DNA from: a virus
Lineage: Duplodnaviria > Heunggongvirae > Uroviricota > Caudoviricetes
DNA length: 33,830 bases
Virus record (IMG/VR): IMGVR_UViG_2740892219_000011
Strand: one strand, 5' to 3'
Each line of letters opens with the position of its first letter. The stretch's first letter is position 1. Positions 1 to 33,830 of the stretch are shown here, piece by piece. The position numbers were made by a program, and so were the translations under genes. Under the pieces are notes generated by a model. The model was not told where the DNA came from. It saw only the letters and a program-made list of their open reading frames with translations, and ran no database searches.

Positions 1-525
1 TTATACAGCTTTCTTTACATCGTTTTCTCTTACAGGGAAATTATGTTCTTTGCCTTCATACTGAGACAAAATCTCTCTCACTTTTTCCGGTGGTAATGCC
101 TGAAGAGTTTGCAGGGTTTTCTGTTGCTCCACAGTAATCCCTAATGCCTCTAATGCCTTATCTTTACTGACAATTGTAGGCATAAGTCCTTTAATCCCTG
201 CTACACGAATGATCTCCACTGCTGCGGCCTGCTCATCTGGTGTTAAGAAACTCATTGCATAAATTAGCCTCTCATCAACTGTATGGACGATTGATGTATG
301 CACTGGTTTATCAGAAAGTGAGGCTCCTTTAATGGCCCTGCGTGTTTCTTCTGGCAGACTGTTGATGTGATACTCATAAGCGACACCTTTCCCACCGTGA
401 CGCTGACGTTTTACCCAATCTTCCGCCACAGCTTTCCTGGTAATGTTAGTCGCCAACTTTGGTACACCAGGCATCCCTTCCAGCTCTTTCGCATTAAACC
501 ATTCTTTGATTTCAAAAGACATCAT
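1..525 (-). CDS. c: Mu-family immunity repressor, 174 aa; stop codon is at window positions 1-3
   Basis: Complete ORF divergent from ner across a 185-bp AT-rich control region. C-terminal segment LQALPPEKVREILSQYEG...VKKAV resembles the Mu Repc C-terminus as I recall it; N-terminus differs from Mu (D108-like immunity?). Confidence 0.8.
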   Translation of the reverse strand: MMSFEIKEWFNAKELEGMPGVPKLATNITRKAVAEDWVKRQRHGGKGVAYEYHINSLPEETRRAIKGASLSDKPVHTSIVHTVDERLIYAMSFLTPDEQAAAVEIIRVAGIKGLMPTIVSKDKALEALGITVEQQKTLQTLQALPPEKVREILSQYEGKEHNFPVRENDVKKAV

Positions 526-710
526 TTAAAATCCTAGTGATTTCAATAGAGACAAAATAAATTCATATAAAAATCATGCTGTTATATGAAATCATGATAA
601 ATCCTTTCAAATCACTATTGATTTAAAAATGATTCCACACTACATTGCACGATATGCCGTGAGCTACTTTATAGCGTAGCTCACGGGGGAATCTGAAAGG
701 ATTACATGAA
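526..710. promoter_or_regulatory. Divergent c/ner operator-promoter region (early promoter, repressor promoter, repressor and Ner operators; transposition enhancer expected here in Mu-type phages)
   Basis: AT-rich intergenic region between divergent c and ner. Contains several copies of TGATTTC/GAAATCA (e.g. near 541-551, 583-598, 608-635) and the dyad AAATCACTATTGATTT. Confidence 0.7.
657..686. promoter_or_regulatory. Perfect 11-bp inverted repeat CCGTGAGCTAC-N8-GTAGCTCACGG; candidate Ner operator
   Basis: Dyad read directly from the sequence, about 25 bp upstream of the ner ATG. Matches my recollection of the D108 Ner site (two 11-bp inverted repeats separated by 8 AT-rich bp). Confidence 0.6.
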
Positions 711-932
711 ATGCATATGAATAAAAGAACTAACCGCCAAGATTGGCACAGAGCTGACATCGTTGCAGAGCTACGAAAACGCAATATGTCACTAGCTGAA
801 TTGGGAAGATCTAATCATCTTTCGTCTTCAACATTAAAAAATGCTTTGGATAAGAGATATCCGAAAGCGGAGAAAATCATTGCAGATGCACTGGGAATGA
901 CACCGCAAGATATTTGGCCGTCTCGATACTAG
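711..932 (+). CDS. ner: Ner-type DNA-binding early regulator, 73 aa
   Basis: Small ORF immediately upstream of transposase A; DWHRADI...IWPSRY motifs typical of the Ner family; D108-like rather than Mu-like N-terminus. Confidence 0.85.
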
Positions 933-939
933 GTGCGCT

Positions 940-2928
940 ATGAAAGAATGGTATACAGCAAAAGAGTTGCTCGGTTTGGCAGGTTTACCAAAGCAAGCCA
1001 CTAACATTACACGTAAGGCACAAAGAGAAGGCTGGGAGTTCAGGCAGGTTGCAGGGACTAAAGGTGTATCATTTGAATTCAATATCAAATCATTCCCTGT
1101 CGCATTACGTGCTGAAATTCTGTTGCAACAAGGGAGAATTGAAACAAGTCAGGGGTATTTTGAAATCGCCCGCCCCACGCTGGAAGCCCATGATTATGAT
1201 CGTGAGGCACTGTGGAGCAAATGGGATAACGCCAGCGATTCCCAGCGCAGACTTGCTGAAAAATGGTTGCCTGCGGTTCAGGCTGCAGACGAAATGCTGA
1301 ACCAGGGGATTTCAACGAAAACGGCTTTTGCGACCGTTGCAGGGCATTACCAGGTCAGCGCATCCACTTTGCGGGACAAGTATTACCAGGTACAGAAGTT
1401 TGCGAAGCCTGACTGGGCGGCTGCACTTGTTGATGGACGTGGAGCATCCCGTCGCAATGTTCACAAAAGTGAATTTGACGAGGATGCCTGGCAGTTTCTG
1501 ATTGCAGATTATCTGCGACCGGAAAAACCCGCCTTCCGCAAATGTTATGAGCGTCTGGAACTGGCAGCCCGCGAGCATGGCTGGAGTATTCCCTCCCGTG
1601 CCACGGCCTTTCGCCGGATTCAGCAACTGGACGAGGCAATGGTTGTTGCCTGTCGTGAAGGTGAACATGCACTGATGCATCTGATACCGGCACAGCAGCG
1701 AACTGTGGAACACCTGGACGCCATGCAGTGGATCAACGGCGACGGTTATCTGCATAACGTCTTTGTACGCTGGTTTAACGGTGATGTGATCCGTCCGAAA
1801 ACATGGTTCTGGCAGGATGTGAAAACCCGAAAAATTCTGGGCTGGCGCTGCGATGTGAGCGAGAACATTGATTCAATTCGCCTCTCGTTCATGGATGTTG
1901 TGACTCGCTACGGTATCCCGGAGGATTTTCACATCACCATTGATAACACCCGTGGTGCTGCGAATAAATGGCTGACGGGAGGCGCGCCCAATCGCTACCG
2001 CTTTAAGGTAAAAGAGGACGATCCAAAAGGACTGTTTTTACTGATGGGGGCGAAAATGCACTGGACAAGCGTTGTTGCCGGTAAAGGCTGGGGCCAGGCA
2101 AAACCTGTTGAACGTGCTTTCGGTGTTGGTGGGCTTGAGGAATACGTTGATAAGCATCCGGCACTGGCTGGCGCATATACGGGGCCTAATCCGCAGGCAA
2201 AACCTGATAACTATGGCGACCGCGCTGTTGATGCAGAGCTGTTTCTGAAAACCCTTGCCGAAGGTGTGGCGATGTTCAATGCCAGAACAGGCCGTGAAAC
2301 AGAAATGTGCGGAGGCAAACTTTCGTTTGATGACGTTTTTGAGCGTGAATACGCCAGAACGATTGTGCGTAAGCCTACCGAAGAGCAAAAACGGATGCTG
2401 TTACTGCCTGCCGAGGCAGTGAACGTTTCACGTAAAGGCGAGTTCGCGCTTAAAGTTGGTGGCTCCCTTAAAGGTGCGAAAAACGTTTATTACAACATGG
2501 CGTTAATGAATGCCGGAGTAAAAAAAGTTGTGGTCAGATTTGATCCACAGCAGTTACACAGCACGGTTTATTGCTACACCCTTGACGGTCGGTTTATCTG
2601 TGAAGCGGAATGTCTGGCACCTGTTGCGTTTAATGATGCTGCGGCAGGCCGTGAATATCGCCGCCGCCAGAAACAACTGAAATCTGCGACGAAAGCAGCA
2701 ATTAAGGCACAGAAACAAATGGATGCACTGGAAGTGGCAGAGCTGCTGCCGCAGATAGCCGAACCTGAAGCACCAGAATCACGAATTGTCGGCATTTTCC
2801 GGCCTTCCGGTAATACGGAACGAGTGAAGAATCAGGAGCGTGATGATGAATACGAAACTGAGCGTGATGAATATCTGAATCATTCGCTGGATATTCTGGA
2901 ACAGAACAGACGTAAAAAAGCCATTTAA
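940..2928 (+). CDS. A: Transposase MuA (DDE transposase), 662 aa
   Basis: Length, position after ner, and long stretches (e.g. [38 protein letters not shown]..., [19 protein letters not shown]) recognisable as MuA; N-terminal about 60 aa diverge, as expected for a different enhancer/operator specificity. Confidence 0.95.
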
Positions 2929-8504: not shown

Positions 8505-8890
8505 CGGAAGATTTATTTGGTGATTTGCAGGATGACACCATCCTGGCACATCTTGACAATCCCGCAGAGGATACGTCACGCTTTCCGGCACTGCTGGCGG
8601 AGCTGAACGATTTACTACGCGGGGAATTGTCCCGACTGGGTGTTGATCCTGCCCATTCACTGGAGATTGTTGTGGCTATCTGTAAGCATCTGGGCGGCGG
8701 TCAGGTCTACATTCCACGCGGTCAGGTTCTGGACTCGCTGATTCGGGATTTGCGTATCTGGAATGATTTTAACGGTCGCAACGTCAGCGAACTGACCACC
8801 CGTTATGGTGTCACTTTCAATACGGTTTACAAGGCCATTCGCCGGATGCGACGGCTGAAATACCGCCAGTACCAGCCCTCACTTCTGTAA
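8501..8890 (+). CDS. mor: Mor middle-operon transcriptional activator, 129 aa
   Basis: Paralogous to the downstream C ORF (LGGGQVYIPRG / FNGRNVSELTTRYG versus LGGRQFYIPCG / FNGRNMEELRRQYR); last gene of the early operon, followed by a terminator. Confidence 0.9.
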   Translation: MTEDLFGDLQDDTILAHLDNPAEDTSRFPALLAELNDLLRGELSRLGVDPAHSLEIVVAICKHLGGGQVYIPRGQVLDSLIRDLRIWNDFNGRNVSELTTRYGVTFNTVYKAIRRMRRLKYRQYQPSLL

Positions 8891-8895
8891 ACAGT

Positions 8896-8920
8896 AAAGC
8901 CGGTTAATCCGGCTTTTTTT
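8896..8920 (+). terminator. Intrinsic terminator ending the early transcript
   Basis: Hairpin AAGCCGG-TTAAT-CCGGCTT followed by a 7-T run, immediately after the mor stop. Confidence 0.8.
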
Positions 8921-8967
8921 ACGTCCTCAATATCCTGTGATGAATAACCGTACCGGGGGAAATCATC

Positions 8968-9186
8968 ATGGGTAAAGGCTGGAATGCATCCTTTCATCTT
9001 GGCAGACGTGAGCGGCTGCGTCAGGAGGTTTTGCACCGTGTCGCCGGTGGGCCACGTCCTGCGCCCCGCGACTATACCGGTCATGATGGCACCCACGGCA
9101 GTTATTACATGAAAGGCTGGCAGTCAGTTGATATGCCGGAAATTCTTCATCATTGCCTGCTTTACAGGGAGAAACATTATGTCTGA
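8968..9186 (+). CDS. Hypothetical protein, 72 aa, first ORF of the presumed middle operon
   Basis: ORF with RBS GGGGGAAA. The Mor-dependent middle promoter is expected in the roughly 50 bp between the terminator and this start; not positioned. Confidence 0.45.
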   Translation: MGKGWNASFHLGRRERLRQEVLHRVAGGPRPAPRDYTGHDGTHGSYYMKGWQSVDMPEILHHCLLYREKHYV

Positions 9187-9541
9187 GCGTTCTGCTCGTC
9201 AGTGGCCTGATTTTTTATCGGTGGTGTTACTGGCGCTGTTATTGTGGATAAGTCTGTTTTGTGGCTGGCGCGCGCTGATGTTTTGCTGTGCCTCGGTTTT
9301 CAGTGTTGCTTTATGTGTTGCCGGTGATTGCCTGGATGCGCTGATAATGAGCTGCCGGGTGCCTGAACATTTTGCCCGGTTCGTCTGGCCTCTGACCTGG
9401 CTGGGGAGTCTGTCCGGGCTGGGATTAGCCGTGATGGCCACGTCTCAACTGAAAACGGGTCCTGAGCATGTCATCTGGGCGCTGGCCGGATTGCTGACGT
9501 TCTGGATCTCCTTTCGTTTTCGCGCTCGTCTGTTCGGGTAA
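9179..9541 (+). CDS. Cys-rich integral membrane protein, 120 aa
   Basis: RBS AGGGAGAAA; several hydrophobic helices (VVLLALLLWISLF, LGLAVMA, ALAGLLTFWI). Confidence 0.6.
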   Translation: MSERSARQWPDFLSVVLLALLLWISLFCGWRALMFCCASVFSVALCVAGDCLDALIMSCRVPEHFARFVWPLTWLGSLSGLGLAVMATSQLKTGPEHVIWALAGLLTFWISFRFRARLFG

Positions 9542-9550
9542 AGGGGCACC

Positions 9551-9670
9551 ATGTACAGAAAATTCAGTGATGAATGTTTCGGGCCGTCCACGCTGATTAG
9601 TGCGATAAAAGTGATTGCCCTTGTGGTTCTGATAACCATCAGTGCCGTGGTGTATCTTTCTGTCTGTTAA
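9551..9670 (+). CDS. Small hydrophobic peptide, 39 aa, single predicted TM helix
   Basis: Hand-translated: MYRKFSDECFGPSTLISAIKVIALVVLITISAVVYLSVC, RBS AAGGGG; below the ORF-track size cut-off. Confidence 0.4.
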   Translation: MYRKFSDECFGPSTLISAIKVIALVVLITISAVVYLSVC

Positions 9671-9682
9671 CCGGGGGAAAAT

Positions 9683-10105
9683 ATGCAGCATGATTTATTT
9701 GAACACGATCCGGCAATTCGCCAGTTAATCGGACATATTGATAACATCCCGGCCCCGGAACTGGAATCACGCTGGCCCCGTTCGGTGGTTGATCTGATTG
9801 ATGTTCTGGAAAACGAACTGAAACGCCAGAACGTCAGCAATCCCCGTGAACTTGCCCGTAAACAGGCCGTTGCCCTGTCATGTTTTCTGGGTGGACGGCA
9901 GTTTTACATCCCCTGCGGCGATACGATCCTGACCGCGTTACGCGACGATTTGCTTTACTGCCAGTTTAATGGTCGTAACATGGAAGAACTGCGTCGCCAG
10001 TACCGCCTGTCCCAGCCGCAGATCTACCAGATTATTGCCCGCCAGAGAAAGCTGCATACACGACGTCATCAGCCTGATCTGTTCTCACCTGAAAGCCCAA
10101 AATAA
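9683..10105 (+). CDS. C: C late-gene transcriptional activator (Mor/C family), 140 aa
   Basis: Paralog of mor (shared C-terminal DNA-binding region); located just upstream of the lysis and late genes. Confidence 0.9.
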   Translation: MQHDLFEHDPAIRQLIGHIDNIPAPELESRWPRSVVDLIDVLENELKRQNVSNPRELARKQAVALSCFLGGRQFYIPCGDTILTALRDDLLYCQFNGRNMEELRRQYRLSQPQIYQIIARQRKLHTRRHQPDLFSPESPK

Positions 10106-10126
10106 CCGGCATCCTGCCGGTTATTT
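10104..10126 (+). terminator. Hairpin, probable terminator of the middle transcript
   Basis: AACCGGCA-TCC-TGCCGGTT stem-loop overlapping the C stop, followed by TTATTT (weak U-tract). Confidence 0.5.
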
Positions 10127-10196
10127 CCTGTCACCATAATCCCGCATCTGCCACCTGATTTTTTAGACTGCCATCAGAGCATTTTTTCAGGGAAGC
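10127..10196 (+). promoter_or_regulatory. Candidate C-dependent late promoter upstream of lys
   Basis: Contains CATAATCCCGC...TTTTTT at 10134-10165, similar to motifs upstream of I and of the tape-measure gene. Confidence 0.5.
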
Positions 10197-10715
10197 ATGA
10201 TGGCGGGGATACCAAAAAAACTGAAAGCCACACTGCTGGCTGTAACGATTGCCGGTGGCGGTGTGGGTGGTTATCAGGAAATGACCCGTCAGTCTCTGAT
10301 CCATCTGGAAAATATCGCTTATATGCCTTACCGCGATATTGCCGGTGTGCTTACGGTCTGTGTGGGACATACCGGGCCGGATATCGAAATGCGCCGTTAC
10401 AGCCATGCGGAGTGTATGGCTCTCCTCGACAGTGATTTAAAACCGGTTTATGCGGCAATCGATCGTCTTGTCAGGGTGCCGCTGACGCCATATCAGAAAA
10501 CGGCGCTGGCAACGTTTATTTTCAACACTGGTGTTACCGCATTCAGTAAATCAACGCTGCTGAAAAAACTCAATGCCGGTGATTACGCCGGAGCGCGTGA
10601 CCAGATGGCCCGCTGGGTGTTTGCCGCAGGCCATAAATGGAAAGGACTGATGAACCGTCGCGAAGTGGAAATGGCAATCTGGAATATCAGGGGGGCGGAT
10701 GACCTTCGCAAGTAA
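10197..10715 (+). CDS. lys: Endolysin, T4-lysozyme-like with N-terminal signal-anchor-release (SAR) domain, 172 aa
   Basis: Catalytic spacing E-8aa-D-5aa-T in ENIAYMPYRDIAGVLT; N-terminal weakly hydrophobic Gly/Ala-rich segment KATLLAVTIAGGGVGG typical of SAR endolysins. Confidence 0.85.
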   Translation: MMAGIPKKLKATLLAVTIAGGGVGGYQEMTRQSLIHLENIAYMPYRDIAGVLTVCVGHTGPDIEMRRYSHAECMALLDSDLKPVYAAIDRLVRVPLTPYQKTALATFIFNTGVTAFSKSTLLKKLNAGDYAGARDQMARWVFAAGHKWKGLMNRREVEMAIWNIRGADDLRK

Positions 10716-11085
10716 AAGTTTACTGCTGGCAGCCGTGTTTGCCGCCGTTCTGTCCGGTGTGTTGTGGCACAGGCTGGGCAGCACCCGCCACGATAACCAG
10801 ACGCTGCGCCGTGAATTACAGACGGAGCAACAGGCCCGCCACACGGCTGAATGGTTGTTACACGGTCAGGAGCAAACGATGCAGGTATTTTCCGCTATCC
10901 GTGCCGCAAATCGTGCCGCGCGGCTGGCAGACGAGACAGAACATCATGATGCAAAACAAAAAATTACAACCGCCATTACCGGTGACAATTGCAGCACTCG
11001 TCCTGTGCCTGCCGGTGCTGCTGACAGGTTGCGGGAACTCGAAAAACGCACCCGTGCCATCGGTGGTGCTCCTGCCCGAAACTGA
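10699..11085 (+). CDS. Rz-like inner-membrane spanin (i-spanin), 128 aa
   Basis: N-terminal TM helix (LLLAAVFAAVLSGVLW) followed by a charged, Gln/Arg-rich helical periplasmic domain; directly downstream of the endolysin. Confidence 0.7.
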   Translation: MTFASKSLLLAAVFAAVLSGVLWHRLGSTRHDNQTLRRELQTEQQARHTAEWLLHGQEQTMQVFSAIRAANRAARLADETEHHDAKQKITTAITGDNCSTRPVPAGAADRLRELEKRTRAIGGAPARN

Positions 11086-11287
11086 TGCAGAACTGACGGA
11101 AGCAACACCCGTTCCGCCCATGCCACAGCCCCTGACGTGGGGAGCATCCCTTCTCTGGAATGCTGACCTGTTGATGGCGCTCGGGCAGTGCAACCGCGAC
11201 AAGGCATCAGTCCGGGAACAGGAGACCCGGAGGAAAGAAATTTATGAACGAAGACCAGAACCGGGCGGTGGTGCTGCTGCTCGCTGA
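10946..11287 (+). CDS. Candidate outer-membrane lipoprotein spanin (o-spanin), overlapping the i-spanin in another frame
   Basis: Internal start MMQNKKLQPPLPVTIAALVLCLPVLLTGC with lipobox LTGC and a Pro-rich mature region; start and true end uncertain. Confidence 0.5.
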   Translation: MMQNKKLQPPLPVTIAALVLCLPVLLTGCGNSKNAPVPSVVLLPETDAELTEATPVPPMPQPLTWGASLLWNADLLMALGQCNRDKASVREQETRRKEIYERRPEPGGGAAAR

Positions 11288-11438
11288 ACTCTGGCAGGGG
11301 GATACCCGTGATATTCCCCGCCCGGCGGCGTATGACCCGCCTGTATTGTGTGCCGGTTGCGGTCGTGAGCTGCGGCCTGATGTGCTGAGACAGCAGCCGA
11401 TGGCGAACTACTGCCACTGGTGCCGTGGAGCAGAATAA
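11244..11438 (+). CDS. Small zinc-finger protein, 64 aa
   Basis: RBS GGAGGAAAG; CAGCG...CHWC motifs. Confidence 0.6.
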   Translation: MNEDQNRAVVLLLAELWQGDTRDIPRPAAYDPPVLCAGCGRELRPDVLRQQPMANYCHWCRGAE

Positions 11439-11737
11439 TGGATTTGATTTCAGTTTTAGCGTTATGGCCTTACCTGTTGCCTGTTGTGGCCGGTGGGGCC
11501 GTCTGGGCGATGCGTCGTAGTTTTGCCAGCACCGAGCGTGTGGAGCGTCTTGAAAACCGGATGACCGAAATGGAAACCCGCTACGCCAGCATCCCAGGCA
11601 CAGAAGATGTACACGAAATGCGCCTGCGTATTGCAGAGCTGTCCGGCGATATCCGGGTGCTGTCCCAGCGGGTGCAGTCATTTTCCCATCAACTGGAGCT
11701 GCTGCTTGAAAACGCAGTAAACCGGAGTAATTCATGA
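11438..11737 (+). CDS. Membrane-anchored coiled-coil protein, 99 aa; possible lysis accessory (releasin-like)
   Basis: ATG overlaps the upstream stop (TAATG); N-terminal TM helix LISVLALWPYLLPVVAGGAVWA followed by a helical charged domain. Functional assignment is by position only. Confidence 0.55.
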   Translation: MDLISVLALWPYLLPVVAGGAVWAMRRSFASTERVERLENRMTEMETRYASIPGTEDVHEMRLRIAELSGDIRVLSQRVQSFSHQLELLLENAVNRSNS

Positions 11738-12024
11738 TTAACGATATTCTGACTGAAGACCGTCGTCTGGTCATCCTGCGTTCCCTGATGGACTGCAATA
11801 ACGAAGCCAACGAATCCATCCTTCAGGACTGTCTGGATGCATACGGACACAACGTTTCCCGCGATGTGGTTCGCGGCCAGATTGACTGGCTGGCAGAGCA
11901 GCAACTGGTCACCGTGGAAAACCTGCGCGGCTTTTATGTCGTAACGCTGACCTCCCGAGGTCAGGATGTGGCGGAAGGCCGCGCCCGCGTTGCCGGTGTC
12001 AAGCGTCCGCGTCCCCGTGCATGA
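11734..12024 (+). CDS. Hypothetical protein, 96 aa
   Basis: ORF translationally coupled (ATGA overlap) to the previous gene; immediately upstream of the terminase small subunit. Confidence 0.6.
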   Translation: MINDILTEDRRLVILRSLMDCNNEANESILQDCLDAYGHNVSRDVVRGQIDWLAEQQLVTVENLRGFYVVTLTSRGQDVAEGRARVAGVKRPRPRA

Positions 12025-12035
12025 CAGGAGGCGTG

Positions 12036-12611
12036 ATGGACAGGAAAACACGGGGCCGGGCTTCAAAAGTGGATTTACTGCCGGAAAACGTACGTAAAAC
12101 GCTGCATGAAATGCTGCGTGATAAGGCGATCCCACAGGCCCGCATTCTGGAAGAAATTAACGCACTGATTGAAGACGCTGGCCTGCCGGATGAGATGAAA
12201 CTCTCCCGTTCCGGTCTGAACCGTTACGCGACGAACGTCGAGCAAGTAGGCCATAACCTGCGACAGATGCGTGAAATGACGTCAGCACTGACCGCAGAAC
12301 TTGGCGACAAGCCAATGGGAGAAACCACAAAGCTGATTCTGGAAATGGCCCGCAGCCAGCTTTTTAAGGCCATGATGCGGCAAATCGAAAACCCGGAATC
12401 TGACGTGGATATTGACCTGCTGAAAAATGCCATGCTGGCGGCACAGCGTCTGGAATCCACGGCAATGTCCAGCCACCGGCGCGAGAAAGAAATCCGCCAG
12501 GCATTCGCAGAAGAAGCGGCAAACGCCGTCAGTGAAGAACTGCGCGGGCAGGATGGCATCAGCGAAGAGCTGGAGCAGCGTATCCGTGATGTGCTGCTGG
12601 GTAAGGCATGA
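12036..12611 (+). CDS. D: Terminase small subunit (DNA-recognition), about 191 aa
   Basis: AGGAGG upstream of ATG 12036 (ATG 12021 also possible); position directly upstream of the large terminase. Confidence 0.7.
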   Translation: MDRKTRGRASKVDLLPENVRKTLHEMLRDKAIPQARILEEINALIEDAGLPDEMKLSRSGLNRYATNVEQVGHNLRQMREMTSALTAELGDKPMGETTKLILEMARSQLFKAMMRQIENPESDVDIDLLKNAMLAAQRLESTAMSSHRREKEIRQAFAEEAANAVSEELRGQDGISEELEQRIRDVLLGKA

Positions 12612-12618
12612 GAGGGTT

Positions 12619-14274
12619 ATGAACACCAGAGAAAACAACCTTAAAGCCCTTCATGCCCCCCGAAAAATCAACCTGCGTGAGGAAGCCGAACTGCTCGGCG
12701 TGCATATCGTGACCGATATCGGGGAAGCACAGCCCCGCAATGAACCGGTTTTTCTGGGCTATCAGCGCCGCTGGTTTGAGGATGAAAGCCAGATTTGCAT
12801 CGCTGAAAAATCCCGTCGTACCGGTCTGACATGGGCCGAAGCGGGCCGCAATGTCATGACGGCAGCAAAGCCGCGCCGCCGTGGCGGTCGCAACGTCTTT
12901 TATGTGGGTTCCCGTCAGGAAATGGCGCTGGAATATATCGCCGCCTGTGCCCTGTTTGCCCGCGCCTTTAACCAGCTGGCAAAGGCTGATGTCTGGGAGC
13001 AGACCTTCTGGGACAGCGACAAAAAAGAAGAAATCCTCACTTATATGATCCGTTTCCCTAACAGCGGATTTAAGGTGCAGGCGCTGTCAAGCCGTCCGTC
13101 TAACCTGCGTGGTTTGCAGGGGGACGTGGTGATTGATGAGGCGGCATTTCATGAAGCCCTGGACGAACTCCTGAAAGCGGCCTTTGCTCTCACCATGTGG
13201 GGTGCCCGCGTGCGGATCATATCGACACATAACGGCGTCGATAACCTGTTTAACCAGTACATTCAGGATGCGCGCGAGGGGCGCAAGGATTACAGCGTTC
13301 ACCGCATCACGCTGGATGATGCCATCGCTGACGGGTTGTACCGACGTATCTGTTACGTCACGAATCAGCCGTGGTCGCCGGAAGCGGAAAAAGCCTGGCG
13401 TGATGGCCTGTACCGGAATGCGCCGAATAAAGAGAGTGCCGACGAGGAATACGGCTGCATTCCTAAAAAATCCGGGGGCGCTTATCTGTCACGCGTGCTG
13501 ATTGAAGCCGCCATGACGCCAGCGCGGGATATCCCGATTCTGCGTTTTGAAGCCCCGGACGATTTTGAATCGCTGACACCACAAATGCGCCACGGCATCG
13601 TTCAGGACTGGTGTGAACAGGAGCTGCTCCCGTTGCTCGATGCGCTGTCGCCGCTCAATAAACACGTACTGGGCGAAGACTTTGCACGCCGTGGCGACCT
13701 GACGGTGTTTGTTCCGCTTGCCATCACTCCTGACTTACGCAAACGCGAATGTTTCCGCGTGGAGCTGCGTAATGTGACCTATGACCAGCAGCGACAAATC
13801 CTTTTATTCATTCTGTCCCGTTTGCCCCGTTTTACCGGCGCTGCATTTGATGCCACCGGTAACGGCGGTTATCTGGCAGAAGCCGCCCGTCTGATTTATG
13901 GCCCGGAGATGATCGACTGCATCAGTCTGACCGCCGCCTGGTATCAGGAGTGGATGCCGAAACTGAAAGGCGAGTTTGAAGCGCAGAACATCACGATTGC
14001 CCGGCATCAGACCACACTCGATGACCTGCTTCATATCAAGGTGGACAAAGGTATTCCGCAGATTGATAAGGGGCGCACAAAAGATGAAAGCGGTAAAGGC
14101 CGACGACATGGTGACTTTGCCGTGGCGCTCTGTATGGCTGTCAGGGCGTCTTATATGAATGGTTTTGTTATCGACGAGGACAGCATACAGGCGCTGCCAC
14201 CACGCCACCGTGGTGATGATGTTGATAACGATGATTTTGATGATTATCACCAGTTTGAACGAGGGGGCTGGTAA
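12619..14274 (+). CDS. E: Terminase large subunit, 551 aa
   Basis: In-frame ATG at 12619 after the D stop; size and position upstream of portal. The longer ORF from 12427 overlaps D and lacks an RBS. Confidence 0.8.
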   Translation: MNTRENNLKALHAPRKINLREEAELLGVHIVTDIGEAQPRNEPVFLGYQRRWFEDESQICIAEKSRRTGLTWAEAGRNVMTAAKPRRRGGRNVFYVGSRQEMALEYIAACALFARAFNQLAKADVWEQTFWDSDKKEEILTYMIRFPNSGFKVQALSSRPSNLRGLQGDVVIDEAAFHEALDELLKAAFALTMWGARVRIISTHNGVDNLFNQYIQDAREGRKDYSVHRITLDDAIADGLYRRICYVTNQPWSPEAEKAWRDGLYRNAPNKESADEEYGCIPKKSGGAYLSRVLIEAAMTPARDIPILRFEAPDDFESLTPQMRHGIVQDWCEQELLPLLDALSPLNKHVLGEDFARRGDLTVFVPLAITPDLRKRECFRVELRNVTYDQQRQILLFILSRLPRFTGAAFDATGNGGYLAEAARLIYGPEMIDCISLTAAWYQEWMPKLKGEFEAQNITIARHQTTLDDLLHIKVDKGIPQIDKGRTKDESGKGRRHGDFAVALCMAVRASYMNGFVIDEDSIQALPPRHRGDDVDNDDFDDYHQFERGGW

Positions 14275-31178: not shown

Positions 31179-32299
31179 TGTTTTATATTGATAACGACAG
31201 CGGCGTAACCGTCATGCCGCCCGTATCCGCCCAGCGTAGTGCTATCGTTCGCTGGTTTTCAGAAGGTGACGGGAATAATGTTATCACATGGCCCGGCATG
31301 GACTGGTTTAATATTGTGCAGGCGGAGTTATTAAACACGCTGGAAGAAGCCGGTATTCAACCGGATAAAACAAAATTAAACCAGCTTGCACTGTCCATTA
31401 AAGCCATTATGAGCAATAACGCGCTGCTGATAAAAAATAACCTCAGCGAAATTAAAACTGCCGGGGCATCAGCACAGCGTACAGCACGTGAAAATCTGGA
31501 TATCTGGGATGCCAGCCTGAACAAAAAAGGACTCGTTCAGCTAACCAGTGCCACTGACAGCCCCAGTGAAACGCTGGCAGCCACCGCAAAAGCGGTGAAA
31601 ATTGCGATGGATAAAAACCTCGGTTTACAGGAAACTGTAAAATTAGCTTCGGAAGCGTTATCAACATATGGCGGGGTGGTTAACGGTGATGTGATTATCA
31701 AGGGCATTCTCTCGTTAATTGGGAATGAATTACTTATTGAAAAAGATAATGGCTTTTCTGGTATTCACATCAGAAACAAGAGCACGGTTGCAGGAAGTGC
31801 AAATGGAGTCGATTTCTCATTTGGCGGAGCGATTATGTCATCGCTCATTTGCGGAATAATGGAAAATGGCGCGAACTACATAGATGTTGCATTGTCTCCG
31901 GCAGGCAATATTTCTGACCGCCGCAAGGTTGCATTTACTTTGGATGGAAATATCAGGCAGTTAATTCCCCAGAATGGATGGAGCATTCAGGGGTATACAA
32001 AAAACAGTGATTTTACCCAGGCGATGGCCGATGCTGGCTGGGTACGTTTTCCAAATGGCATCATTTTTCAATGGTGTTGGGGAAATACTGATGCCAGTGG
32101 CTGGGCATCTGCCCCGTTTCCTGTTGGTTGGCCTGTTCGTTGCTTTGGTTTGTTAGCCTGTAACGTTGCTGGTGACTCGATAGCAAGTGCAATTGCGGGT
32201 GTTAAAAGATTAAATGATCGCGATATGCAGGTCACGTTAATGGAAAGGTCTGGGGTTGCTGTTTCTAAACCATTCTTCTGTATTGGTGTGGGGTGTTAA
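31178..32299 (+). CDS. S: Tail fibre protein S, with constant part and G-segment variable part, 373 aa
   Basis: Followed by a tail-fibre assembly gene and by inverted U'-S' on the minus strand; a gix-like recombination site lies inside the ORF. Confidence 0.8.
   Translation: MFYIDNDSGVTVMPPVSAQRSAIVRWFSEGDGNNVITWPGMDWFNIVQAELLNTLEEAGIQPDKTKLNQLALSIKAIMSNNALLIKNNLSEIKTAGASAQRTARENLDIWDASLNKKGLVQLTSATDSPSETLAATAKAVKIAMDKNLGLQETVKLASEALSTYGGVVNGDVIIKGILSLIGNELLIEKDNGFSGIHIRNKSTVAGSANGVDFSFGGAIMSSLICGIMENGANYIDVALSPAGNISDRRKVAFTLDGNIRQLIPQNGWSIQGYTKNSDFTQAMADAGWVRFPNGIIFQWCWGNTDASGWASAPFPVGWPVRCFGLLACNVAGDSIASAIAGVKRLNDRDMQVTLMERSGVAVSKPFFCIGVGC
31609..31634. other. gix-like DNA-invertase crossover site (left boundary of the invertible G segment) inside S
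   Basis: Reverse complement reads TTCCTGTAAACCGAGGTTTTTATCC, closely resembling the Gin/Hin recombination site consensus as I recall it. Confidence 0.6.
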
Positions 32300-32301
32300 T
32301 C

Positions 32302-32778
32302 ATGTCCAGTAAAATATTCTATAGTGCCAGGAATAATACGTTTTTCTTTGAATCCATGAAACCGGACTATGAAAAATCAGGCGCATGGCCTGACGATTTG
32401 GTGGCAGTCACAAACGATATGTATGAAGAGTTTACGGGAAGACCGCCAGAGGGAAAAAAGAGAGGCCGTGATGAATCTGGTTTCCCTACATGGATTGATG
32501 TATCAGAACCAACAACAGAGCAGTTAATCGCATTAAAAGAGCAGAAGAAAAAGGATTTAGCCGAGATTGCGAACACAGAAATTGCCTGGCGGCAGGATGC
32601 TGTTGACGCAGGGATGGCGACAGAAGCAGAAATCACTGTACTGGCTGAATGGAAAAAATATCGTGTGCTGCTTATGCGTATTGATACATCAACCGCGACG
32701 GATATTGAGTGGCCCGCTGTTCCAGACGAACAAAGCGGCAAAGAGAGCAGCGCAGAGGATGTGAAAACGACGCTATAA
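32302..32778 (+). CDS. U: Tail fibre assembly protein, 158 aa
   Basis: ATG 32302 just after the S stop (the track ORF begins at GTG 32293); small acidic protein downstream of the fibre gene. Confidence 0.75.
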   Translation: MSSKIFYSARNNTFFFESMKPDYEKSGAWPDDLVAVTNDMYEEFTGRPPEGKKRGRDESGFPTWIDVSEPTTEQLIALKEQKKKDLAEIANTEIAWRQDAVDAGMATEAEITVLAEWKKYRVLLMRIDTSTATDIEWPAVPDEQSGKESSAEDVKTTL

Positions 32779-32882
32779 TACCAGCACAATTATTATCATT
32801 TTTGTTATTTTGTATTTCCTTGCTTTCCGCAGTCATGTGGATATGGAAAAGCCTGGATGGCCACAAAAGCCTGAGTAAAATT

Positions 32883-32902
32883 AAGGCCCGATAACGGGCC
32901 TT
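32883..32902. terminator. Hairpin between convergent U and U' (probable terminator)
   Basis: AAGGCCCG-ATAA-CGGGCCTT perfect stem immediately 3' of the U' stop on the minus strand, flanked by A/T runs. Confidence 0.55.
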
Positions 32903-32904
32903 TC

Positions 32905-33438
32905 TCATTCTGGTTGTTCGGGGAATGTTACCGGCAGGCTGGAGGTGTCTGTGGATTCGACTTTCTGCGCATAGAGCATCCACTCGGTTAATTTCTGTTT
33001 ATTCTCATCGGAAATGATGCCCAGCCGTAGCTGTGAGTCCCATAGCTGGGTTTTATCCCTGACAAGTTGCAACAGGCTTTGTTTTTCATTCTCTGCCTGC
33101 TGCCTCTGCTCTTCCCCGGTATAAGTTCGCTTTATCACCGCACCATCTTTGAACATCCATTTACCCGAAATATCAGCCCGGCGATTTGCTGTAATATCAG
33201 GTAATTCAACGACGCTTGCGCCTTCTGGATTAATTGCTGAAACATCCTTTTCAATACAAATAATAACGCCGTTATGGTCATAGACCATTTTCAACGTATC
33301 AGACTGGAAATTCTTTTGTTCCTCATACCAGTTTTTTCCATCCTCTGTATAAAGCCATTTGATGTTAAATTGCTTTGTTAGCTGATATTGCTCTTTTGTT
33401 TTAGGATTGCCAGCAGTAATGTTTTTTAAGTGCATCAT
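32905..33438 (-). CDS. U': Alternative tail fibre assembly protein, 177 aa
   Basis: Minus-strand ORF inside the G segment, typical Tfa-like protein, convergent with U. Confidence 0.8.
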   Translation of the reverse strand: MMHLKNITAGNPKTKEQYQLTKQFNIKWLYTEDGKNWYEEQKNFQSDTLKMVYDHNGVIICIEKDVSAINPEGASVVELPDITANRRADISGKWMFKDGAVIKRTYTGEEQRQQAENEKQSLLQLVRDKTQLWDSQLRLGIISDENKQKLTEWMLYAQKVESTDTSSLPVTFPEQPE

Positions 33439-33440
33439 CG

Positions 33441-33830
33441 TTAAATACTCCCCGCGTTATACCACGTCCCATTAATGCAATACTGAATTGGCCTTGCCTG
33501 AGTTGTATCAATTAATTCGTCACGGTTTCCGTTAACTGAACCTGTAACGACATAACCTGACTTATCAGACCAACCAGGCCCATTCCATGTTTGAACAGAT
33601 GACAGTCCTCCTAAACGGACACCTGTAATAAATCGTGAATTACATTCCGCTTTAGTATATGCACCAACATCTCCTGCTGAAGGTTTTCTGGTGGTGGTGT
33701 AAAATTCGGACCAGTCGGCTTCAAAACCATAACCATCACGGGCTGAACGATAAAAGATACCGCCGTTCTTATAATTCACGCGGAACTGTACTGCCGGACA
33801 ACTACCCGTATTCATATTGAAATGAAGAAT
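33441..33830 (-). CDS. S': Alternative tail fibre variable C-terminal part, partial; 5' end lies beyond the window
   Basis: Minus-strand ORF ending at 33441; the frame stays open to the window edge. Gly/Asn/Thr-rich receptor-binding-like C-terminus, unrelated to the C-terminus of S. Confidence 0.7.
   Translation of the reverse strand: MLHFNMNTGSCPAVQFRVNYKNGGIFYRSARDGYGFEADWSEFYTTTRKPSAGDVGAYTKAECNSRFITGVRLGGLSSVQTWNGPGWSDKSGYVVTGSVNGNRDELIDTTQARPIQYCINGTWYNAGSI

What the first reader, a model, noticed from the sequence alone, without database searches (positions are those of the whole stretch)
10197..11737. Lysis cassette with SAR endolysin and overlapped spanin pair but no obvious canonical holin
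The endolysin carries the E-8aa-D-5aa-T catalytic spacing and an N-terminal signal-anchor-release-like segment. It is followed by an i-spanin with an embedded lipobox-bearing o-spanin candidate, a zinc-finger protein and a membrane-anchored coiled-coil protein. No class I/II holin-like ORF is adjacent, so the membrane-anchored 99-aa protein (11438-11737) may act as the release or timing factor.
Basis: partly seen in the sequence, partly recalled or inferred. Interest (0 to 1): 0.4.

Follow-up and report, generated by a model that had tools for sequence, protein, structure and literature searches.

The report
Phage Mu holin-less lysis cassette

Summary
Window 10197-11737 is the late lysis cassette of a Mu-type transposable phage. 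It is 98.5% identical in DNA to phage Mu, and the window is near-identical to Escherichia virus Mu_3F6.

The genes, in order:
- gp22, SAR endolysin (10200-10715; E37-x8-D46-x5-T52; K6, K7 and K9 present)
- gp23, i-spanin (10699-11085)
- gp23.1, o-spanin (10946-11287; lipobox LTGC, Cys29). It is overlapped with gp23, not embedded in it.
- gp24, a 64-aa Cys4 protein (11244-11438)
- gp25 (11438-11737), 100% identical in protein to the Mu releasin (DUF2730)

Chamblee et al. 2022 (mBio, PMC9239132) showed that Mu has no holin. They showed that gp25 is required to release gp22 from the inner membrane, that K6 and K7 of gp22 confer this dependence, and that gp19/gp20 are not holins.

My additions are small:
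- Relatives with about 65% releasin identity keep the lys-23-23.1-24-25-26 block but lack gp19/gp20.
- gp25 is predicted all-helical with heptad repeats and has no invariant serine, which weighs against the protease model.
- gp24 weakly resembles TraR/DksA zinc-finger proteins. This is a lead only.

Novelty: already known. Interest: low.

The parts
10103..10126 (+). Hairpin after gene C, annotated as a terminator in Mu. It marks the end of the middle operon.
   Evidence: Inverted repeat ATAACCGGCA...TGCCGGTTAT read. Mu annotation AF083977 10383-10406, offset 280.
10123..10189 (+). Plys, the C-activated late promoter that drives the lysis and head genes.
   Evidence: Mu annotation 10403-10469. 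There are two substitutions versus Mu in the intergenic region, at 10147 and 10180.
10200..10715 (+). gp22 (Lys): SAR endolysin, a T4-lysozyme-type muramidase. Catalytic residues E37, D46, T52. SAR domain about residues 10-26. K6 and K7 confer dependence on the releasin.
   Evidence: PF00959 E 1e-37. PHROG 7 endolysin E 3.7e-52. Two amino-acid differences from Mu gp22. Motif and hydropathy. Experiments in PMC9239132.
10699..11085 (+). gp23: i-spanin, the inner-membrane subunit, with an N-terminal transmembrane domain.
   Evidence: PHROG 214 Rz-like spanin E 4.4e-35. KD19 1.93 at residues 4-22. Mu annotation. Six amino-acid differences from Mu.
10946..11287 (+). gp23.1: o-spanin, an outer-membrane lipoprotein with lipobox LTGC and Cys29. 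It lies in the +1 frame, overlaps gp23 by 140 nt and extends 202 nt beyond it (overlapped architecture).
   Evidence: PF23793 LysC E 1.8e-14. PHROG 3001 E 2.4e-29. Lipobox found. Mu_55 annotation.
11244..11438 (+). gp24: 64-aa soluble Cys4 protein (CxxC-x17-CxxC) of unknown function, possibly with a TraR/DksA-like fold. It overlaps the o-spanin 3' end by 44 nt, and its stop codon overlaps the gp25 start (TAATG).
   Evidence: PHROG 3260, unknown function. Only three clusters of matching size among 1.84 billion representatives. The Cys4 motif is conserved in relatives. Fold and profile leads.
11438..11737 (+). gp25: releasin (DUF2730). A type I (N-out, C-in) membrane-tethered protein with a 73-aa cytoplasmic helical domain. 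It is required for release of gp22 from the inner membrane.
   Evidence: 100% identical to Mu gp25. PF10805 at 50.4 bits. Transmembrane domain and heptads. All-helical model. Experiments in PMC9239132.
9179..9541 (+). gp19: a middle-operon protein with four predicted transmembrane domains. It was once proposed as the holin. It is not part of the lysis mechanism and is listed for context.
   Evidence: Mu annotation. KD19 2.40. PHROG 4975, unknown function. Not lethal when triggered and dispensable. Absent from relatives L003 and L004.
9551..9670 (+). gp20: a 39-aa middle-operon protein with one transmembrane domain. It was once proposed as the antiholin. It is not part of the lysis mechanism and is listed for context.
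   Evidence: Mu annotation. KD19 2.77. PHROG 19823, unknown function.

Best explanation
The region is the late lysis cassette of a Mu-type transposable phage, transcribed from the C-activated promoter Plys. It works without a holin.

Shown for Mu (PMC9239132) and carried over here by identity:
- gp22 is exported by the Sec system and sits tethered and inactive in the inner membrane, held by its weakly hydrophobic N-terminal SAR helix.
- Two adjacent lysines (K6, K7) on the cytoplasmic side lock the helix in the bilayer, so it does not escape spontaneously at normal expression levels.
- gp25, the releasin, has a single transmembrane helix and a cytoplasmic helical domain. It enables the SAR helix to leave the membrane.
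- gp22 then refolds into an active muramidase and degrades the peptidoglycan.
- The gp23/gp23.1 spanin complex disrupts the outer membrane.

Inferred: how gp25 acts. I favour a non-covalent action at the cytoplasmic membrane face. The oligomeric coiled-coil protein has an invariant juxtamembrane stretch, RR-x-F-x3-ERVE-xx-E, which lies where the K6/K7 pair of gp22 sits. There it could shield or neutralise the basic N-terminus, or locally perturb the bilayer, so that the N-terminus can cross. I favour this over cutting gp22 or forming a lethal hole.

gp24 is co-transcribed but is not needed for release.
For: Identity:
- 98.5% DNA identity to Mu over 9600-12100.
- The window equals Mu_3F6 apart from six single-base differences over 1-31614 and an inverted G segment.
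- All five cassette ORFs have the same lengths as in Mu. gp25 is identical, and gp22 differs at A11T and Q171K only.
- The curated Mu annotation calls these genes SAR endolysin, i-spanin, o-spanin and releasin.
- Family matches: PF00959, PF23793, PF10805; PHROG endolysin and Rz-like spanin.

Experiments, from PMC9239132:
- No lethal DNP triggering of gp19, gp20 or gp25.
- 25::cam abolishes timely lysis.
- gp22 plus gp25 are sufficient for lysis.
- K6A or K7A removes the dependence on gp25.
- gp25 also helps heterologous SAR endolysins.

No holin here:
- Hydropathy scans.
- No holin family hit.
- Relatives at about 65% releasin identity keep lys-23-23.1-24-25-26 but have no gp18-20.

Mechanism lean:
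- The gp25 model is all-helical: H10-49 and H55-98 (low confidence, pLDDT 62.5).
- Heptad a/d positions are 35, 38, 42, 45, 49 and then 58 through 93.
- In family members down to 42% identity, the invariant residues cluster at R27, F29, E33-R34-V35-E36, E39, R41, T43 and E46. No serine is invariant, and D57 is not invariant.
Against: Nothing contradicts the identification.

On the mechanistic detail:
- The releasin mechanism is unresolved in the literature. The published options are a protease, an unknown partner or charge neutralisation, and a Tat-like channel.
- My structural model of gp25 has low confidence.
- The alignment used for conservation is shallow, with members at 42% identity or more (one truncated member at 36%).
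- The conserved charged residues fit the e/g positions of an ordinary coiled coil, so they may be purely structural.
- gp25 also assists SAR endolysins whose N-termini share no similarity with gp22. This argues against a specific binding site.
- DUF2730 proteins also occur beside endolysins that have no SAR domain. The family's general role may therefore be something other than SAR release.
Confidence: 0.96

Rival explanations
1. gp25 is itself an unusual single-TMD holin or pinholin. On this view it depolarises the membrane at a programmed time and so releases the SAR endolysin.
For: It is a small late-expressed membrane protein in the lysis cassette. gp22 can be released by a genuine pinholin, S21 68.
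Against: In Mu, induced gp25 is not lethal when the membrane is depolarised with DNP. DNP delays rather than advances Mu lysis, and gp25 alone has no effect on growth. The topology is N-out/C-in, with only about 4 periplasmic residues and a 73-aa soluble cytoplasmic domain. It has no holin family match.
Confidence: 0.02
2. The upstream membrane proteins gp19 (four TMDs) and gp20 (one TMD) are the holin-antiholin pair, and gp25 is unrelated to lysis.
For: Their topologies resemble those of holins. Samanta et al. proposed this pairing, as cited.
Against: They are middle-operon genes upstream of C, not late genes. Inactivating them does not affect lysis, and they are not lethal when triggered. 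The relatives L003 and L004 keep the whole lys-to-26 block but have no gp18-20. Neither protein matches a holin family.
Confidence: 0.01
3. The releasin is a membrane-tethered protease. It clips the basic N-terminal peptide, including K6 and K7, off gp22 and so frees the SAR helix.
For: This is one of the authors' models. The cytoplasmic domain is rich in Ser and acidic residues and has 2 His (counts reproduced). H84 is nearly invariant.
Against: The 73-aa domain is predicted to be two long helices with heptad repeats and no strand, which is unlike known serine-protease folds. No serine is invariant in the family: S31 becomes G or T, S28 is T in most members, and D57 is lost in one member. gp25 also acts on unrelated SAR endolysins, which the authors argue rules out a specific protease.
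Confidence: 0.05
4. The releasin recruits or mimics a host export machine such as Tat, or forms a transient substrate-gated channel. Through it the charged N-terminus of gp22 passes.
For: There is a twin-arginine motif, R26-R27 (R27 invariant, R26 in all but one member), at the junction of the transmembrane domain and the cytoplasm. The authors discuss this model. General activity on diverse SAR endolysins fits a non-specific conduit.
Against: The motif has the opposite orientation to a Tat signal, and basic residues at that position are expected from the positive-inside rule anyway. gp25 has no growth or energetic phenotype. There is no direct evidence.
Confidence: 0.2

Closest known systems
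Phage Mu lysis cassette: gp22 SAR endolysin, gp23/gp23.1 spanins, gp24, gp25 releasin (AF083977; Chamblee et al. 2022, PMC9239132)
   Same: Same genes, order, lengths and overlaps. DNA identity is 98.5%. gp25 is identical. gp22 keeps K6, K7, K9 and E37/D46/T52. The late promoter region is conserved.
   Different: There are a few substitutions: gp22 A11T (inside the SAR helix) and Q171K, six in gp23, seven in gp23.1, and one in gp24. The immunity end of the window is D108-type rather than Mu-type.
Pinholin plus SAR endolysin systems (phage 21 S21 68 / R21; P1 Lyz)
   Same: The endolysin is exported by Sec, tethered by a weakly hydrophobic SAR helix, and activated on release. Mu gp22 can be released by the phage 21 pinholin.
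   Different: No holin or pinholin is encoded. Release depends on a non-lethal cytoplasmic-domain protein, and depolarisation with DNP does not advance lysis.
P2 LysB/LysC and lambda Rz/Rz1 two-component spanins
   Same: An inner-membrane subunit with an N-terminal TMD plus an outer-membrane lipoprotein encoded in the +1 frame. The o-spanin matches Pfam LysC.
   Different: The architecture is overlapped, as in P2: the o-spanin extends 202 nt beyond the i-spanin. It is not fully embedded as in lambda.
TraR/DksA C4 zinc-finger proteins (F-plasmid TraR; the phage-encoded DksA/TraR gene of the Mu-like Burkholderia phage KS10). This comparison concerns gp24 only.
   Same: An N-terminal helix followed by CxxC-x17-CxxC. 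The top Foldseek hits are TraR bound to RNA polymerase and viral DksA/TraR proteins. The top PDB profile hit is the zinc finger of a DksA-family protein. KS10 has a dksA/traR gene at the equivalent place, between the endolysin and the small terminase subunit.
   Different: No hit is statistically significant (E 0.12-0.5). No Pfam zinc-finger DksA/TraR match appeared even at E up to 10. gp24 is shorter than TraR. No function has been tested.

Membership tests
SAR endolysin (T4-lysozyme-type muramidase with a signal-anchor-release domain) | Phage lysozyme catalytic domain with the E-x8-D-x5-T triad | tested here: met
   PF00959 E 1e-37. ENIAYMPYRDIAGVLT at residues 37-52.
SAR endolysin (T4-lysozyme-type muramidase with a signal-anchor-release domain) | N-terminal weakly hydrophobic, Gly/Ala-rich, uncharged helix preceded by basic residues | tested here: met
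   Residues 10-26 contain 5 Gly, 3 Ala and 2 Thr. KD19 is at most 0.96, against a threshold of 1.6 for a transmembrane domain. K6, K7 and K9 lie upstream.
SAR endolysin (T4-lysozyme-type muramidase with a signal-anchor-release domain) | Membrane-tethered inactive form that a pinholin or depolarisation can release | not testable with these tools
   Shown for Mu gp22 with S21 68 (PMC9239132). The protein here differs from Mu gp22 at 2 of 171 residues.
Two-component spanin | [quoted passage not shown] | tested here: met
   KD19 1.93 at residues 4-22. PHROG 214 E 4.4e-35.
Two-component spanin | o-spanin that is a small lipoprotein with a lipobox Cys, encoded in the +1 frame overlapping the i-spanin gene | tested here: met
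   LTGC with Cys29, 10 Pro in 85 mature residues, gene at 10946-11287. PF23793 E 1.8e-14.
Two-component spanin | Loss of function gives spherical cells that do not lyse | not testable with these tools
   Shown for Mu 23.1 amber, complemented by lambda RzRz1.
Releasin (DUF2730, type I) | Full-length match to PF10805 above the gathering score | tested here: met
   50.4 bits against 24.9, E 2.5e-13. 100% identical to Mu gp25.
Releasin (DUF2730, type I) | N-terminal TMD with N-out/C-in topology, and twin basic residues at the cytoplasmic boundary | tested here: met
   KD19 1.84 at residues 4-22. R27 is invariant; R26 is kept in 12 of 13 family members and is Lys in one. Topology is inferred from the positive-inside rule.
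Releasin (DUF2730, type I) | Encoded within five genes downstream of the endolysin in a transposable phage | tested here: met
   It is four genes downstream of gp22 (after gp23, gp23.1 and gp24). GemA, Mor, transposase and a Mu-type portal are in the window.
Releasin (DUF2730, type I) | Required for release of the cognate SAR endolysin | not testable with these tools
   Shown for the identical protein in Mu by 25::cam and by plasmid co-expression.
Holin (class I/II/III or pinholin) | Sequence membership of a known holin family | tested here: not met
   No holin family hit in PHROGs for gp19, gp20, gp23, gp24, gp25 or gp26, and none in Pfam.
Holin (class I/II/III or pinholin) | Lethal hole formation that can be triggered early by depolarisation | not testable with these tools
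   Published result for Mu gp19, gp20 and gp25: not lethal after DNP. DNP delays lysis of the lysogen.
DksA/TraR C4 zinc finger (gp24) | CxxC-x17-CxxC zinc-finger spacing after an N-terminal helix | tested here: met
   Cys36, 39, 57 and 60. Model shows helix 3-16 followed by a zinc-knuckle region, pLDDT 76.
DksA/TraR C4 zinc finger (gp24) | Significant sequence or structure match to the family | tested here: inconclusive
   No Pfam zinc-finger DksA/TraR hit at E up to 10. The PDB profile top hit is 2kq9 at E 0.51. Foldseek top hits are TraR 6n57_M at E 0.18 (probability 0.72) and a viral DksA/TraR protein at E 0.12.

The most novel reading that the evidence does not exclude
gp24 is the small Cys4 protein wedged between the spanin and releasin genes and apparently translationally coupled to both. 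It may be a miniature TraR/DksA-like protein that binds the secondary channel of host RNA polymerase late in infection. If so, Mu would couple a transcription modulator to its lysis cassette, and gp24 might tune late gene expression or lysis timing in a phage that has no holin clock. gp24 is not discussed in the main text of the releasin paper (no mention of gp24, 'gene 24' or zinc). Its family is confined to a handful of Mu-clade clusters.
Probability: 0.2. Interest if true: 0.4.

Novelty: already known. Interest (0 to 1): 0.1.

Why it matters
A holin-less lysis system with a releasin was a real surprise when it was reported for Mu in 2022. This window is simply another copy of that system, from a phage about 98% identical to Mu.

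Two questions remain open:
- How the releasin gets a positively charged N-terminus across the membrane.
- What gp24 does.

Neither question is specific to this window.

Tried and rejected
- I looked for a hidden holin with hydropathy scans of the annotated genes and of all ORFs of 40 aa or more, on both strands. Beyond the known gp19, gp20, gp23, gp23.1 and gp25, only shadow ORFs inside larger genes and internal hydrophobic stretches of the tail sheath and gp47 appeared. Rejected.
- Pfam and PHROGs gave no holin family for any nearby protein.
- The sigma-70 and terminator consensus scan of 8800-12700 found nothing above shuffled expectation. It missed the annotated Plys, which is C-activated and therefore not consensus-like.
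- The search for distant gp24 relatives, by word-index search and by a full HMMER scan of 1.84 billion representatives, found only three clusters of matching size. The other hits were short matches to long repetitive proteins.
- The gp25 AlphaFold model had low confidence (pLDDT 62.5), so I did not run a fold search on it.
- The third fetched locus, L005 (48% releasin hit), carries a frameshifted remnant and was not informative.
- The PNAS 2026 paper on MuC and the sliding clamp says nothing about gp24, gp25 or gp26.
Full report
**What is there**

The ORF list and the sequence show a tightly packed run of same-strand genes from 10197 to 12024. A megablast of 9600-12100 against phage records gave 100% identity to Escherichia virus Mu_3F6 (LR595867.1) and 98.5% to phage Mu (AF083977), with D108, SfMu and several Yersinia Mu-like phages close behind.

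Over 1-25000 the window also matches Mu_3F6 at a rounded 100%. A base-by-base comparison found six single-base differences in 1-31614, followed by a block that is the reverse complement of the record. The window is therefore a Mu-type phage genome. It runs from the repressor gene into the invertible G segment.

**The genes of the finding**

The curated Mu record annotates the homologous stretch as follows: C (late activator), a terminator, the C-dependent late promoter Plys, SAR endolysin gp22, i-spanin gp23, o-spanin gp23.1, hypothetical gp24, releasin gp25, and winged-helix gp26, followed by the terminase.

Translating the window's genes and comparing them with Mu gave identical lengths throughout:
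- gp22 has two substitutions, A11T and Q171K.
- gp23 has six substitutions.
- gp23.1 has seven.
- gp24 has one.
- gp25 and gp26 have none.

At the DNA level the spanin genes are the most diverged (95.9% and 97.1%). gp25 carries only two synonymous changes.

The catalytic spacing E-x8-D-x5-T is present, at E37, D46 and T52 in the 171-aa numbering.

The N-terminus of gp22 is MAGIPKKLKATLLAVTIAGGGVGGYQ. It has three lysines followed by an uncharged Gly/Ala/Thr-rich stretch. The 19-residue hydropathy of that stretch stays at or below 0.96. That is too weak for a stable transmembrane helix, which is the hallmark of a SAR domain.

gp23 has a strong N-terminal transmembrane segment and matches the Rz-like spanin PHROG.

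The o-spanin starts at 10946 in the +1 frame inside gp23. It has lipobox LTGC with Cys29, is proline-rich, and matches Pfam LysC. Because it extends 202 nt past the gp23 stop, the pair is 'overlapped' (P2-like) and not 'embedded' (lambda-like).

gp24 has four cysteines arranged CxxC-x17-CxxC.

gp25 has an N-terminal transmembrane segment. It also has two helices with regular heptad a/d hydrophobic positions: V35, L38, M42, M45, Y49, and then V58 through A93. It matches DUF2730 above the Pfam threshold.

**Is there a holin?**

Among annotated genes, only gp19, gp20, gp23, gp23.1 and gp25 have a strong hydrophobic segment in a small protein. The other two hits are internal stretches of the tail sheath and gp47. 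An all-ORF scan on both strands added only shadow ORFs inside larger genes. No protein near the cassette matches a holin family in Pfam or PHROGs.

Two relatives fetched through their DUF2730 proteins (about 65% identity) keep the whole block: lysozyme, i-spanin, overlapped o-spanin, Cys4 protein, DUF2730 and gp26, followed by the terminase. Neither has gp18-20. Instead, each has a signal-peptide protein between gemA and C. This is comparative support for the view that gp19/gp20 are not part of the lysis machinery.

**What is already published**

Chamblee et al. 2022 (mBio, PMC9239132) examined exactly this cassette in Mu. They reported the following:
- gp22 is a SAR endolysin that the phage 21 pinholin can release.
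- gp23/gp23.1 are the spanins. Amber mutants give spherical cells and are complemented by lambda RzRz1.
- gp19, gp20 and gp25 are not lethal when the membrane is depolarised with DNP, unlike lambda S105 and S21 68.
- DNP delays lysis of induced Mu lysogens rather than advancing it.
- A 25::cam prophage keeps growing past the normal 40-minute lysis time, although chloroform releases active gp22.
- gp22 and gp25 co-expressed from plasmids lyse cells, and neither does so alone.
- K6A or K7A in gp22, but not K9A, removes the need for gp25. Arginine substitutions keep it.
- gp25 also promotes release of three unrelated SAR endolysins.

They named gp25 the 'releasin' and concluded that Mu is holin-less. 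Later papers cite this as established.

The protein in this window is identical to Mu gp25, and its partner gp22 keeps K6, K7 and K9. The published mechanism therefore applies directly.

**How the releasin works**

This remains unresolved. The authors offer three models:
- proteolytic removal of the basic N-terminus of gp22
- neutralisation of the charge, either directly or through an unknown partner
- a transient, Tat-like channel

I added three small pieces of evidence.

First, an AlphaFold model built on 15 homologues is all-helical, with helices 10-49 and 55-98 separated at the conserved Pro53. Its confidence is low (pLDDT 62.5), but the heptad pattern read directly from the sequence agrees with it.

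Second, I aligned family members down to 42% identity. The invariant residues are R27, F29, E33, R34, V35, E36, E39, R41, T43, E46, P53, R62 and L63, with R26 kept in all but one member. They are concentrated in the segment directly after the membrane helix. No serine is invariant, and D57 is not invariant.

Third, R34, E39, R41 and E46 fall on the g and e positions of the heptads. This is what one expects for a parallel coiled-coil oligomer. That reading is my inference.

Together these points weigh against a serine-protease fold. They fit a membrane-proximal, oligomeric, charged helix acting at the cytoplasmic face, where the K6/K7 pair of gp22 sits. I therefore favour a non-covalent shielding or chaperone action, at roughly even odds. 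Second is a transient channel or host-factor route, and the protease model is least likely. None of this is shown.

**gp24**

The releasin paper's main text does not mention gp24, 'gene 24' or zinc. The plasmid result, in which gp22 plus gp25 suffices, means gp24 is not required for release.

Its family is tiny. A word-index search found five proteins. A full HMMER scan of 1.84 billion representatives found three clusters of matching size. The four cysteines, the N-terminal Glu/Asp-Asp pair (E3-D4 here) and His58 are conserved in the relatives.

Several weak results point to a TraR/DksA-like fold:
- A profile search of PDB sequences put the zinc finger of a DksA-family protein first, at E 0.51.
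- An AlphaFold model (pLDDT 76) gave TraR bound to RNA polymerase as the top PDB fold match, at E 0.18 and probability 0.72.
- YbiI and DksA appeared lower in the same list.
- The top viral fold matches were DksA/TraR C4 zinc-finger proteins, at E 0.12.
- The Mu-like Burkholderia phage KS10 has an annotated dksA/traR gene at the same position, between the endolysin and the small terminase subunit.

Against this, Pfam gave no DksA/TraR hit even at E up to 10, and no single result is significant. I record gp24 as a possible TraR-like protein. It is a lead, not a finding.

**Verdict**

The feature is real, intact and correctly interpreted. It is the textbook example of its kind, the phage Mu lysis cassette with its releasin, in a phage about 98% identical to Mu. 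Novelty: already known. Interest: low.

Noticed in passing
window 31614-33830: This stretch is the reverse complement of LR595867.1 32743-34959, while everything to its left is collinear. The invertible G segment (tail-fibre genes S/U versus S'/U', flipped by Gin) is therefore in the opposite orientation to the closest database record. This is a known Mu host-range switch.
   Followed up: partly
window 1-1127: The left end, including the repressor gene on the minus strand at 1-525, matches D108, SfMu and Mu_3F6 but not Mu AF083977, whose match starts at 1128. The phage carries a D108-type immunity region on an otherwise Mu-like genome.
   Followed up: no
window 11244-11438 (gp24): This 64-aa Cys4 protein has an N-terminal helix followed by CxxC-x17-CxxC. 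Its top but non-significant fold and profile matches are TraR and DksA zinc-finger proteins. Phage KS10 has a dksA/traR gene at the same position. The family is confined to a few Mu-clade clusters.
   Followed up: partly
L003 770-1144 and L004 828-1220 (relatives of the window): Mu-like relatives with about 65% releasin identity lack gp18, gp19 and gp20. Instead they carry a 124-130 aa protein with an N-terminal signal peptide between gemA and the C-like activator. No Mor-family gene was called between gemA and C in these loci.
   Followed up: no
L004 1765-2271 (endolysin of a relative): The N-terminus is MASKLPKTLSAS. It has Lys-Thr where Mu has the K6-K7 pair that confers releasin dependence, and an extra Lys further upstream. 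In Mu, K7A alone removes the need for gp25, yet this phage still carries a DUF2730 gene.
   Followed up: no
window 6467, 8488, 9439, 16678, 18283, 18570: These six single-base differences from LR595867.1 are the only ones in the 31.6 kb of collinear sequence. Position 9439 lies in gp19.
   Followed up: no
window 10699-11287: The spanin genes are the most diverged part of the cassette relative to Mu: 95.9% and 97.1% DNA identity, with 6 and 7 amino-acid changes. The releasin is invariant at the protein level.
   Followed up: no
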